Assembly: GCA_951406725.2 (NCBI GenBank) | Contig: OX597816.1 | Coordinates: 74,400,001-74,464,000, forward strand | Source of the DNA: Octopus vulgaris | Taxonomy: Eukaryota | Length of the DNA: 64,000 nt | Direction of reading: 5' to 3' | Shown: positions 6,591-35,559 of the stretch, piece by piece | Layout: each line of letters opens with the position of its first letter | Position numbering within the stretch: the first letter of the stretch is position 1 | Translations under genes and position numbers: made by a program | The notes under the pieces: generated by a model | Seen by the model: only the letters and a program-made list of their open reading frames with translations | Told to the model about the DNA's origin: nothing | The model's database searches: none

Positions 6591-6967
6591 TGAAGCTTTC
6601 TAAGTTAACCCCAACATTGACAGGATGACTTCAGAGATAGTTTAAATTCTTTTTGCATCTTCGTAATCGTTCCATTTATATTTATTTTCATACTCAACAT
6701 TTATCAGAACCAAACTACTTTCATTTCGCTCTTAGACACTCGGGTATTAGCTGTTATTGCATCAGTGTTTACTGCAACCATCTTTATCATCCTGACTATT
6801 ATTTTTTTAACGACTATCATTTTCACCGAATCCCACATTAAATATCACTGTAAATATGATTGCAGAACCCGTCAAGTAGCAGACAAAATATAAATTGCGT
6901 ACCTGGTTGTATACTTTTGAGTTCTGAGTTTAAATTCCGCTGGGTAAAACTTTGAACTTTTTTTTTT

Positions 6968-7390
6968 TACCTCCGTCTTCACTGATGCGGAGGTATTGTT
7001 TTCAGTTGTGTTTGTTTGTTTGTTTGTTTGTCCATGGGTAAGATATCTCAAGAACAGCTGGATGGATTCGGATGAAACTTTCAGGAATGTTTGGCCTCGT
7101 GACTGGCACAAACTGATTAGATTTTAGGATCGGTTCAGTACCGGACAAGGATTCTGGATTATTTTTCCTATTTTTTAAACTTAATTTTTGAGAGCGGGCG
7201 GGTTCATTTTTAGAATTCTCGTTTGTGAGAGCAGTCGAGTTTATTTCAGATATTCTCATTTTAAAATTCATCTCCGGCTAATCGTTGAGAGGACATTGGT
7301 GTTGCCGTTGTTTGAGTTGGTCGTTTGTGGCCGCGGTTTGGTTGGGGAAGGTTGTCTTTTAGAGACTGTCTGTTGAATATATTGTTTTTT
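6968..7390 (+). mobile_element. Helentron-associated (HINE/DINE-1-like) non-autonomous element
   Basis: A T-run, then a cctccg...cggagg hairpin, (gttt)n and the ggatggattcggatgaaacttt motif, as in DINE-1-like elements. Confidence 0.55.
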
Positions 7391-8220
7391 GTAATTGTTG
7401 AAGGTTGTTGGGGCGACTTGCGCGTGGTTGTTTTTGTTGTTGTTGTTTTGCTGCTTTTCTCCATGTTGTAGGGGTGAGGGAGTTGGCTTTGTTGTGGAGA
7501 GCTGCGCGGGGTCCGCTGCAGTGGGGGTAGCTGCGCCGTTGGGGGTGAGGCGGTTAGGGATTAATATGGAGGACATGGTGGGAAGCGGGTGGTTCGTGCG
7601 GGGAACTGGGGCGCAATTGGGCTGGTCCCTCCTGAGGGGAGCGGTGGAGCGTTGGTGTGCCGCGTGGAGGCGGTCGCCACCAGCAGGATGGAGGAGTTGT
7701 CAGGGGGCGATGTTGGGGAGTGTCTGGGAGCCGTGGTAGAGGTGGGGGTGGATGACTGCATTTGTTATCGGAGTGGGGGTGCAGCTGGGTGGGGGTGGGG
7801 GCGGCCTCGCGTTCCACCGCTGTTCTTCAGTCAGGTGGGGTGGCACTGCTGTCCATGTGTGGAGACGGGTGTGGTGTTCGGGTCCAAGGTGCCGCCTGAA
7901 GTGGAGGCGGAGTTGTTGGTGGCAGCTGTTCTGTCTGCCGCTGGGGACGGTCCGGGGTTGGGGCCGGTGATGGGTGGGGGTGTGTTGGGCTGGTGGGGGT
8001 GCGGTGTCGGGATGTGGCTTTTTGTCGCTTTTGAGGGCATTAGGGAAGGTCCCTGCTGATCAAATTCTTTCCACAAGGGCAGTTTGGTGGAGGTTGGAAT
8101 GAGTCGATTACATCAACCCCGGTGTTCAACTGGTACTTATTTAATCGACTCCTAAATGATGAGAGGCAAAGTCGACCTCAGCAGAATTTGAACTCAGAAT
8201 GTAGCAGCAGATGAGATACT
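7190..8220 (+). other. A-depleted, G-enriched tract (putative A-to-G hyper-edited sequence)
   Basis: In the core (~7400-8050) the three 60-nt lines I counted have only 3-6 A each, while T and C look background-like. The adjacent SINE copy has G where paralogues have A. Confidence 0.65.
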
Positions 8221-8267
8221 GCTAAGCATTTCATCGAGAGTGCCAATGACTCTGACGACTCATTGCC

Positions 8268-8309
<42 letters not shown>

Positions 8310-8310
<1 letters not shown>

Positions 8311-9195
8311 GTAAATAATACTCATCAATGGCTAATGACTTCTGGTTTAAAATCAGAAACAGAAGGGTTTGTCATAGCAGCCCAAGATCAATGCCTACCT
8401 ACAAGGAACTACCAGGCCAACATATTAAAGAACAGCTGCTCCCCAATGTCATGTATGTCAACAACAAAATGAGATCATTGATCATGTTGTCTCCATGTGC
8501 AGTTTTCTTGTGCCTACAGAGTATTTCAACAGGCATGATAGAGTTGCACAATATATTCACTGGGTAATTTGCAAAAACCTGGACTTGCCCCATGATAAAA
8601 ACTGGTGGGAACACAAACCACCCCCAGTGCTTGAAAATGATCACATCTCACTCCTCTGGAACTTCACCATTCAAACTGACAGAAAGATAGATGCAAATAG
8701 GCCAGACATCATATTGAAAGACTTCAGACAAAAATCATGCCTCCTCATTGATATGACTGTTCCAATTGACATAAATGTATCTATTAAGAGCTACCAAAAA
8801 CTGAGCAAGTATAAAGATCTTGAAATAGAAATGTGGAACCTCAAGACTAAAACAATACCTGTTGTCATAGGTGCTCTAGGAATGATAGCAAAAGGGGCTG
8901 ATTGCTACCTAGCTCAGATACCAGGAAACTCCAAAATGGCAGAAATTCAAAAGATAGTGCTCATGGGAACTGCTCATAACCTACGTAAAATACTGTCTAT
9001 GTAATCTCAAATTTTAAAACAAACTCATAATTTTCTTATGGTTTCTTAAACATTCTCTAGAGCAACACTATGTACAAAACCAAATATATGGCACCCTAGG
9101 CATAACACCAACATGAACTTCTAACTTGTCTCTTGAGGTGTCTGGGTGAGACTTGGAGCCAACTTGTACAAATGCAAAGCAAAAGTAAAACATAA
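8310..9195 (+). mobile_element. 5'-truncated Dong/R4-clade non-LTR retrotransposon (CCHC knuckle + restriction-like endonuclease) in a (TAA)n target
   Basis: ORF 8495-9004 contains RHDRVA..IHW, NRPDIIL, LIDMTVP, KLSKYKDL and IPVVIGALG. (TAA)n lies on both sides, the known Dong target. Confidence 0.9.
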
Positions 9196-10399: not shown

Positions 10400-10700
10400 T
10401 GAACGTGGTCAATGCCAGGTCCACCTGACTAGCTCCTGTGCCGGTGGTACATAAAAAGTACCATCCAAACGTGGCCAATGCCAGGCCCGCCTTACTGGTT
10501 CTTGTGCCGGCGGCACGTAAAAAGCACCTACTACACTCTCAGAGTGGTTGGCGTTAGCAAGGGCATCCAGCTGTAGAAACATTGCCAGATCAGAGTGGAA
10601 CCTGGTGCAGCTGCTGGCTCTCCAGACCTCAATCAAACCATCCAACTCATGTCAGTATGGAAAACAGACGTGAAACGACGACGATGATGATAATGATGAT
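10400..10700 (+). mobile_element. RTE 3'-end-derived repeat (family C) ending in (GAT)n
   Basis: gagtggttggcgttag.aagggcatccagctgtagaaac...aaacgatgatg. Many copies, e.g. 9760(-), 10830(-), 11775-12110, 12770, 13670-14010, 16030(-), 30165(-), 34540(-), 38300, 48370, 56230, 57460(-), 58285(-), 60230. Confidence 0.8.
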
Positions 10701-16027: not shown

Positions 16028-16738
16028 CATCATCATCATCATCGTTTAGCGTCCGTTTTCCATGCTAGCATGGGTTGGACGGTTCTACTGGGGTCTGTGA
16101 AGCCAGAAGGCTTCATCAGGCCCAGTCAAATCTGGCAGTGTTTCTACGGCTGGATGCCCTTCCTAACGCCAACCACTCCATGAGTGTAGTGGGTGCTTTT
16201 TACGTGCCACCCGCACTGGTGCCAGACAGAGCTGGCAAACGGCCACGAACGGATGGTGCTTTTTATGTGCCACCGGCACGAGGGCCAGGCGAGGCTGGCA
16301 ACGGACACGAAACGGGGCGGTGCTGGCAATGGTCGCGAAACGGAAAGTTCTCTTACATGCCACCGGCACTGGTAACACATCTGCAATTTCCATTGATCGA
16401 TTTCGATTCTGATCCTCACTTGCCTCAACGGGTCTTCACAAGCAGAGTTTTGACATGCCACCGGCACTGGTAGCACATCCGCAATTTCCATTGATCGATT
16501 TCGATTCTGATCCTCACTTGCCTCAACACGTCTTCACAAGTAGAGTTTTGTGTCCCAAGAAGGGAAGGTATGCATACGTAGGCTAGCTCCATCCCATGTA
16601 GAAGGCCACGGGTTATGGACTCACTTGTCCTGCCGGGTCTTCTCGCGCACAGCACACTTCCAGAGGTCTCGGTCTCTAGTCATTTCCTCAGTGAGACCTA
16701 AAGTTCGAAGGTCGTATATATATATAATAATAATTAGT

Positions 16739-34719: not shown

Positions 34720-35235
34720 CCAGCACGGGAGCCAGTCAGGCAGCACTGGCAACAACCACGCTTGAATGGTGCTTTTGTGTGCCACTGGCATGGGGCCAGC
34801 CAGGCGGTACTGGCTCGAATGGTGCTTTTTATGTGCCACCAGAATGGGGGCCAGTCAGGCGGCACTGGCATCGACTACACTCAAACAGTGCTTTTTACAT
34901 ACCACCAGCATGGGGGCCAGTCGGGCAGCACTGACATCGACTACACTCGAATGGTGCTTTTTACATACCACTGGTACGGGTACCAGTCAGGTGGCACTGG
35001 CATCAACCATACACGAATAGTGCTTTTTACGGGTCACTGGCACAAGTGCCAGTCAGGTGGTACTGGCATCAATCATACATGAATAGTGCTTTTTACAGGC
35101 CACTGGCACAAGTGCCAGTCAGGTGGCACTGGCAACAACCACGCTCGAATGATGCATTTTATGTGCCACAAGCATGGGGACCAGTCAGGCAGCACTGGCA
35201 TCGACCACTCTTTAATGGTGCTTTCTACATGCCAC
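34720..35235 (-). repeat. ~57-60-bp minisatellite (~9 units) within RTE 3'UTR-derived repeat
   Basis: Unit ~ccagtcaggcggcactggcatcgaccacactcgaatggtgctttttacatgccactggcatgggg. Versions with 2-3 units at ~10410, 11780, 16200, 38310, 57630 and 60240. Confidence 0.85.
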
Positions 35236-35559
35236 CGTCCATGTTCCAGGCTGGCATGGGTTGGATAATTTGATAGGATCCAATGTATTTAAGAATGCCC
35301 TTCCTAATGCTAACCACTCAACAGTGTGGACCAGGTGTTTTTTTTCAAGCTACCTGCTCTATTGAGAACACTGTGCATCTCACAGAACTACGAACCCTTC
35401 ATGATGATGATGATGGTGGGGGATGAAGGGACTGAACTATGAGAAGTGGTGGGGAATAGGGGTGGCAGCAGTACAGGTTCTTGTAGTGATTCTTGTAGCG
35501 ACATTTAGTAAAGGAAGGGGAGAGAAGAGCAAATGAACAATGGCAGGTGCAGGAGATAG

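What the first reader, a model, noticed from the sequence alone, without database searches (positions are those of the whole stretch)
7190..8220. Genomic tract with an ADAR A-to-G hyper-editing signature
Seen: in an AT-rich genome the + strand here loses A (3 in 7921-7980, 3 in 7981-8040, 6 in 7741-7800) and gains G, while T and C stay roughly normal. It is not a tandem repeat. Surviving As are mostly preceded by G or C and rarely by T or A. The adjoining SINE B copy has G where the 44.6-44.9 kb paralogues have A (tgagtcgattac vs taagtcgattac, ccccggt vs ccccagt, gatgagaggc vs gatgaaaggc, gatgagatac vs gatgaaatac). The long G/V/W/C-rich ORFs are what loss of TAA/TAG stops would produce. Established: ADARs disfavour a 5' G, and coleoid cephalopods edit heavily. 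Inference: hyper-edited RNA was written back into DNA by retro-integration or cDNA-mediated conversion; alternatively the assembly was polished with RNA reads.
Basis: partly seen in the sequence, partly recalled or inferred. Interest (0 to 1): 0.88.

Follow-up and report, generated by a model that had tools for sequence, protein, structure and literature searches.

The report
Hyper-edited retroelement RNA fixed in DNA
This stretch is half of a jumping-gene copy in an octopus genome in which about two thirds of the A letters on one strand have become G, stopping where the copy meets its landing site, most likely because the RNA-editing enzyme ADAR altered its RNA before it was copied back into inherited DNA.

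Summary
Real, and ADAR write-back is the best reading, but the unit is 7308-8060, not 7190-8220. It is the 5' half of an ORF1-only (zinc-knuckle) mobile element that inserts at one fixed site of a ~400-bp host repeat. Contigs of other samples and organism labels carry the tract: no polishing artefact. 13 of 83 sampled units are A>G-hypermutated, none T>C; they lie among ordinary copies in a tree and show ADAR's 5' order T>A>C>G. Inferred: ADAR edited duplexed element RNA, which was then reverse-transcribed into the germline. The duplex partner and the mobilising reverse transcriptase were not found. This scan noted the same phenomenon earlier in other elements, two in this genome; my paper searches found only retroviral and APOBEC precedents.

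The parts
6960..7307 (+). Left ~345 bp of an abundant ~400-bp host repeat (short 5' hairpin, (GTTT)n tract); not hypermutated; serves as the built-in control
   Evidence: 88-92% identical paralogues; A>G 3/68, G>A 6/85, T>C 1/129
7291..7306 (+). Target motif of the host repeat at which the element inserts; about 13-16 nt of it recur at the 3' end of complete copies elsewhere (target-site-duplication-like)
   Evidence: position; 46 of 90 fetched loci show the left junction, the right or both; 16 both; some loci are one place fetched twice; empty site in L003
7308..8060 (+). 5' half of the ORF1-only element (subfamily beta), sense strand +, with 101 of 156 conserved A read as G; first change 7323, last 8058
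7565..8059 (+). Remnant of the ORF1 reading frame, ending just before the zinc knuckle that follows in sister copies
8060..8320 (+). SINE copy with (TAA)n tail that follows the truncated element; no directional A>G excess; not part of the edited unit

Best explanation
The tract is the 5' half of an ORF1-only, site-specific mobile element whose sense strand carries A>G at about two thirds of its conserved adenines, most likely because ADAR hyper-edited the element's RNA while it was double-stranded and that RNA was then likely reverse-transcribed into germline DNA. Shown: the DNA is real and shared between samples and organism labels; the change is one-way, one-strand and one-type; it starts at the insertion junction; it recurs in sister copies of two subfamilies with the 5' order T>A>C>G. 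Inferred: (1) the element moves through RNA, borrowing the reverse transcriptase and endonuclease of an autonomous target-specific LINE that I did not find; (2) its RNA was duplexed with an antisense transcript or an inverted copy at the source locus; (3) ADAR deaminated A to I; (4) reverse transcriptase put C opposite I, fixing G; (5) the copy has since decayed neutrally and lost its 3' half.
For: Spectrum: A>G 101/156, T>C 5/152, G>A 11/170, C>T 12/100, A>T 6, A>C 0; 62-66% at all four conservation cut-offs tried. Junction: host flank 3/68 (p 4e-20 against the element); host flanks of five other hypermutated loci 0-2 of 65-69 (L018, L019, L067, L068, L073). In tandem arrays one unit is changed and its neighbour is not: L015 82/375 vs 14/458, L017/L078 74/331 vs 25/460, L014 71/165 vs 12/284, L082 98/345 vs 13/318. 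13 of 83 units pass both A>G>T>C and A>G>G>A tests after Bonferroni; 0 of 83 show T>C excess at p<0.05. Neighbours (ancestral context, 19 pieces chosen by eye): beta 5' T 0.53, A 0.44, C 0.30, G 0.16; alpha 0.41, 0.31, 0.13, 0.08; TAG the top triplet in both; 5' test p<0.05 in 15 of 19 pieces; window T 10/10, A 24/31, C 16/24, G 25/48, p 0.011. This matches the metazoan ADAR motif (PMC9989829, passages: 5' U/A favoured, G disfavoured; 3' G favoured in most species). Without A-majority columns, hypermutated copies group with ordinary ones at 97-99% support and share few other changes. Genomic reality: contigs of X1 (850 bp, 0 differences; may be the assembly's own sample), X2 (other sample and study, 5 other letters), X5 (organism B, 19 differences in ~600 bp), X7, X9; 102 of 108 converted sites in 7464-8047 are also G in X5. 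The genome encodes A_deamin-family genes at four places. Octopus has one of the two strongest RNA hyper-editing signals in PMC5625713 (passages).
Against: No edited RNA was seen and no enzyme was tested. No duplex partner was found: no second family copy in the window or in nine 10-kb flanks of five hypermutated loci, longest exact inverted repeat in three ordinary copies 10-12 nt; opposite-strand family hits occur in only 3 fetched loci, partly between distant subfamilies. No ORF2 or autonomous partner was found, so the RNA route rests on anatomy. PMC5625713 (passages) reports 3' A, not G, enrichment for invertebrate hyper-edited sites; here 3' G is highest when pooled (0.41 vs 0.24-0.30; 0.26 vs 0.17-0.24) and the window copy has no 3' bias (p 0.42). 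Ordinary copies show a weak 5' bias in the same direction (T 0.08 vs G 0.04-0.05). Pooled p-values treat shared sites as independent. 65% conversion exceeds the ~50% ceiling I recall for one round of ADAR on a perfect duplex (recalled, no call). Six interspecies differences are family-A, window-G, orthologue-A and could not be polarised. L015 and L049 are sisters (97%), so not every copy is a separate event; no formal monophyly test was run.
Confidence: 0.8

Rival explanations
1. The conversion happened after insertion: edited transcripts of the resident copy were used for RNA-templated repair or cDNA gene conversion, or a deaminase acted on the displaced sense DNA strand in an R-loop, possibly more than once.
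For: Confinement to a transcription unit and the neighbour order would look alike. L028 is converted only over ~400 columns with a sharp edge (1 of 204 before, 53 of 105 within). 6 of 19 differences to organism B are at family-A sites where only the window lineage has G. The window's 65% may mean several rounds.
Against: Adjacent tandem units and host flanks are untouched. 102 of 108 converted sites are shared with organism B. G>A reversion at a converted site is seen (7963: A in X2, G in window and in the X5 orthologue contig), and 6 of 108 converted G against 3 of 131 ancestral G reading A in X5 is within what reversion could give. No inverted partner near the copies.
Confidence: 0.1
2. The mobilising reverse transcriptase, or an unbalanced dNTP pool, occasionally misreads template adenines, as in diversity-generating retroelements (family property recalled).
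For: Explains strand, confinement to the insert and one event per copy without needing a duplex, which I did not find.
Against: A>C and A>T are not raised (0 and 6 of 156; other copies); the 5' order and top TAG triplet match ADAR; segmental conversion in L028.
Confidence: 0.05
3. Regional DNA processes: GC-biased gene conversion, or replication- or transcription-linked strand asymmetry.
For: The tract is GC-rich (up to 0.67) in an AT-rich genome.
Against: No T>C, A>C or T>G gain; flanks and neighbouring tandem units unchanged; always the element's sense strand, whichever chromosome strand it lies on.
Confidence: 0.02
4. Assembly or polishing artefact, or wrong polarity (G-rich ancestor, APOBEC-like G>A in the others).
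For: Run kinds are guessed ('DNA?' or '?') and only contigs, not raw reads, were available.
Against: Contigs of several studies and organism labels hold the tract with their own variants. A-rich copies are the majority, share their A and keep long open frames with conserved Trp; G-rich copies mostly do not share their G.
Confidence: 0.02

Closest known systems
ADAR-linked A-to-G hyper-editing in avian retroviruses RAV-1 and avian leukosis virus (Felder 1994; Hajjar and Linial 1995, as cited in PMC8586724; passages of the review read, originals not seen)
   Same: Clustered A>G in a reverse-transcribed element, ascribed to ADAR acting on its RNA.
   Different: Here it is a non-viral, ORF1-only genomic element, fixed in the germline, older than a split between organism labels, and repeated in at least 13 of 83 sampled units.
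APOBEC 'DNA-edited' LTR retrotransposons of vertebrates (PMC4866542, PMC2873906; passages read)
   Same: Strand-biased, clustered, context-dependent hypermutation of single retroelement copies, inherited in the genome.
   Different: G>A on the sense strand by a cytidine deaminase on cDNA; reported absent from 19 invertebrate genomes. Here A>G with the ADAR context, in an octopus.
HAL1 (half-L1) non-autonomous elements (PMC5753468, passage read)
   Same: Dispersed family that encodes only an ORF1-like protein.
   Different: HAL1 derive from mammalian L1; this ORF has one CCHC knuckle and ZCCHC3-like features, and the element inserts at one fixed site and forms head-to-tail arrays.
Target-specific Tx1-clade LINEs, e.g. 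Xenopus Tx1 inserted in the Tx1D DNA transposon (PMC4494074, passage read)
   Same: Insertion at a fixed site of another repeat with a short duplication.
   Different: No ORF2 here, so the clade cannot be assigned; no variable poly(A) tail, the 3' end is a fixed AATAAA plus a short A-rich run.

Membership tests
ADAR hyper-edited sequence | Clustered, one-directional A>G dominating all other changes | tested here: met
   101/156 A>G vs 5/152 T>C and 11/170 G>A
ADAR hyper-edited sequence | 5' neighbour U/A favoured, G disfavoured | tested here: met
   T>A>C>G in both subfamilies and in the window copy; motif from PMC9989829, PMC5625713, PMC8586724 passages
ADAR hyper-edited sequence | Weaker 3' preference (G in most species) | tested here: inconclusive
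   3' G highest when pooled, none in the window copy; the two papers differ for invertebrates
ADAR hyper-edited sequence | Long double-stranded RNA substrate | tested here: inconclusive
   No inverted copy near five loci, no long internal inverted repeat; the source locus of each copy is unknown, so absence at the landing site does not test it
ADAR hyper-edited sequence | Host encodes adenosine deaminases of the ADAR/ADAT family | tested here: met
   PF02137 matches at four places of G000; dsRNA-binding domains not checked
ADAR hyper-edited sequence | Inosine in the RNA, dependent on ADAR | not testable with these tools
   No raw RNA reads of the family; needs stranded RNA-seq and knockdown
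Non-LTR retrotransposon, ORF1-only non-autonomous (HAL1-like) | ORF1-type nucleic-acid-binding protein | tested here: inconclusive
   zf-CCHC at or near the Pfam cut-off in 5 of 6 intact copies; Atlas features 0.89-0.92 to CCHC and ZCCHC3-like clusters; model pLDDT 57; fold search not run
Non-LTR retrotransposon, ORF1-only non-autonomous (HAL1-like) | No ORF2 in the unit | tested here: met
   Units 1.6-1.8 kb close with the target motif; no long family-linked ORF downstream in 8 of 8 loci read for ~6 kb; RT-like pieces in L113 and L119 lie on the other strand
Non-LTR retrotransposon, ORF1-only non-autonomous (HAL1-like) | Target-site duplication | tested here: met
   13-16 nt motif on both sides in 16 loci, single in the empty site; a recombinase-type core repeat would look the same
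Non-LTR retrotransposon, ORF1-only non-autonomous (HAL1-like) | Variable 3' poly(A) tail | tested here: not met
   3' ends are AATAAA plus a short, mostly fixed A-rich run
Tx1 clade | APE and RT phylogeny | not tested
   No autonomous partner identified
APOBEC DNA-edited retroelement | Sense-strand G>A | tested here: not met
   Direction is A>G

The most novel reading that the evidence does not exclude
Edited RNA keeps rewriting resident copies after insertion: the window copy took several rounds of ADAR edits into its DNA, including six A>G since it parted from organism B, so octopus RNA editing would be a continuing, locus-directed germline mutagen rather than a one-off scar at insertion.
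Probability: 0.08. Interest if true: 0.95.

Novelty: new variant of a known kind. Interest (0 to 1): 0.72.

Why it matters
RNA editing is normally not inherited. Here a mobile family in an animal with extreme editing seems to have carried whole hyper-edited molecules into the germline many times. Each copy is a single-molecule record of ancient ADAR activity in germ cells (level, extent, neighbour preference), datable across species. The fixed landing site gives a same-locus unedited control that excludes regional DNA mutation more cleanly than most repeats can. It also suggests that ADAR cripples a share of new insertions, an invertebrate counterpart of APOBEC editing, which the published screen for G>A would not have seen. 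The phenomenon is not unique to this locus: earlier notes of this scan report it for Penelope, CR1 and L1 copies.

Tried and rejected
Polishing artefact: rejected. SINE and left repeat as edited: rejected. gBGC and regional asymmetry: rejected. One edited founder for all G-rich copies: not supported (tree used 31 of 44 beta and 36 of 39 alpha units of at least 700 nt; the window's branch is inflated by ~140 nt of SINE in that alignment). Local duplex partner: none found. Rest of the element or of the host repeat in the window: none. Polarising the six ambiguous sites: organism F (X14) gave no orthologous contig, and no related genomes are held. No RNA holder was listed; this says nothing on expression. 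Protein-picked sample of 23 alpha-like units: composition only, none extreme; it is biased to A-rich copies and was not scored by alignment. Homologue search gave 5 Octopus bimaculoides-type unnamed proteins of 193-616 aa only; longer, ORF1-ORF2 forms were not searched. PDB sequence search hit only zinc knuckles and a weak Pcc1 match. The structure model was poor and the fold search could not be run. Seven paper searches (listings read) gave no report of ADAR-edited retroelement copies fixed in a cephalopod genome; the library lacks most subscription papers and no supplements were read.

Full report
Observation. C and T are not far from the window's background (0.15 and 0.29 against 0.21 and 0.30). 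It is not a tandem array.

It is genomic DNA. Contigs from public runs hold the stretch. X1 covers 7279-8128 with no difference, but may be the assembly's own sample. X2, another sample and study of the same organism label, covers 7277-8128 in two contigs with five other letters and small gaps; X5 (organism B) covers 7464-8128; X7 and X9 cover parts. Run kinds are guessed and these are contigs, not reads, but independent samples with their own variants exclude polishing with RNA reads.

What the tract is. A search of the genome (2.8 Gb; protein relatives are labelled Octopus bimaculoides) splits the region in three. 6960-7307 is the left part of an abundant ~400-bp repeat. 7308-8060 has dispersed paralogues at 66-72% identity, which continue into a reading frame with a CCHC knuckle on the same strand. 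8060-8320 is a SINE. The middle unit belongs to a large family (150 scored of 14,511 first-look candidates) of 1.6-1.8 kb elements with one ORF, 410-483 aa from stop to stop in the most intact relatives, and no ORF2 within about 6 kb downstream in 8 of 8 loci. Copies sit at one fixed site of the host repeat: 46 of 90 fetched loci show the left junction, the right junction or both, 16 both, with 13-16 nt of the target repeated on each side and single in an empty site. Head-to-tail arrays are joined by the same motif. This works like an ORF1-only, target-specific non-LTR element (HAL1, PMC5753468; Tx1 in Tx1D, PMC4494074; passages read), but it has no variable poly(A) tail and no partner was found, so I do not file it in either family. 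The window copy has lost its 3' half.

The mutation spectrum. Against 27 ordinary sister copies the window unit has A>G at 101 of 156 conserved A, T>C at 5 of 152, G>A 11 of 170, C>T 12 of 100, A>T 6, A>C 0. Changes run from 7323 to 8058.

It recurs. Of 83 units (44 beta, 39 alpha), 13 pass both strand and direction tests after Bonferroni, 10 beta and 3 alpha; five more pass one; none shows T>C excess. The beta sample was drawn with G-rich queries and the alpha sample with an A-rich one, so neither gives the true share. In four tandem arrays one unit is converted and its neighbour is not; host flanks of five other converted loci have 0-2 of 65-69. With all A-majority columns removed, converted copies group with ordinary ones at 97-99% support; one pair (L015, L049) are sisters. 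Pairs of converted copies share G more than chance (odds ratios mostly 1.5-7) but share few other derived changes, which fits site preference better than descent.

The signature. In ancestral context the conversion rate by 5' neighbour is T 0.53, A 0.44, C 0.30, G 0.16 (beta) and 0.41, 0.31, 0.13, 0.08 (alpha); TAG ranks first in both; 15 of 19 pieces are significant alone. This is the ADAR order in PMC9989829 and PMC8586724 (passages). The 3' side is less clear: G is highest when pooled, the window copy is flat, and PMC5625713 reports 3' A for invertebrate hyper-editing. Ordinary copies show a weak bias in the same direction, which could be light editing or ordinary mutation context. The genome has A_deamin-family genes.

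Timing. 102 of 108 converted sites in 7464-8047 are also G in organism B, so the bulk is older than that split. Six sites are family A, window G, orthologue A. They may be reversions in B (three ancestral G also read A there, and 7963 shows such a reversion in X2) or later gains in the window's lineage; without an outgroup I cannot tell.

Mechanism. Most likely a sense transcript of a source copy was held in a long duplex, hyper-edited by ADAR, and then reverse-transcribed at the target site in a germ cell by a borrowed enzyme, fixing I as G. Strand, type, context, junction and recurrence are shown; duplex, enzyme and RNA route are inferred. The weak points are the missing duplex partner (none in the window or nine 10-kb flanks; no long internal inverted repeat; opposite-strand hits in three loci) and the missing autonomous element. 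Write-back after insertion (0.10) and a biased reverse transcriptase (0.05) are the live rivals.

What is known. The nearest published cases I found are ADAR-linked hypermutation in two avian retroviruses (cited in PMC8586724; originals not seen) and APOBEC G>A editing of vertebrate LTR elements, reported absent in invertebrates (PMC4866542, PMC2873906; passages). Searches listed no paper on ADAR-edited retroelement copies fixed in a cephalopod genome; the library is incomplete. This scan's notes report the same phenomenon in 11 findings in at least 6 genomes (8 shown, two in this genome); I did not test them, and my reading was set before I saw them. What this locus adds is a further element type, the highest conversion among the 83 units, a same-site unedited control and cross-species alleles.

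Verdict. Real; a new variant of a known kind; confidence in the ADAR-before-insertion reading 0.8; interest 0.72.

Noticed in passing
G000, e.g. L112:6477-7877, L113:6436-7884, L115:595-2007: A very large octopus family of ORF1-only zinc-knuckle elements (ZCCHC3-like features), several subfamilies, fixed target site in another repeat, head-to-tail arrays; some copies keep open frames of 410-483 aa. No named family was found for it.
   Followed up: partly
L028 (G000:C4:67185018-67186395): Copy converted only over ~400 alignment columns with a sharp 5' edge; may mark the length of one RNA duplex or a template switch.
   Followed up: partly
window 6960-7307 and L002-L012: Host repeat with a short 5' hairpin and a (GTTT)n tract, reminiscent of Helentron/HINE or 'pearl'-type elements (names recalled, not tested).
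   Followed up: no
window 8320-9010: 3' fragment of another non-LTR retrotransposon (191-aa frame, weak zf-RVT hit E 0.014) between (TAA)n tracts.
   Followed up: no
L044, L045, L048 (C10:6.82 Mb, C29:13.98 and 15.96 Mb): Near-identical two-unit arrays at three places, probably recent segmental duplications.
   Followed up: no
L061 (G000:C6:5907981-5910464), L041, L047: Family copies on opposite strands within 2-3 kb; candidates for duplex-forming source loci, though partly from distant subfamilies.
   Followed up: partly
window 34760-35236: 66-bp tandem array, about 6 copies, with related units at 10402-10528 and 16192-16311.
   Followed up: no
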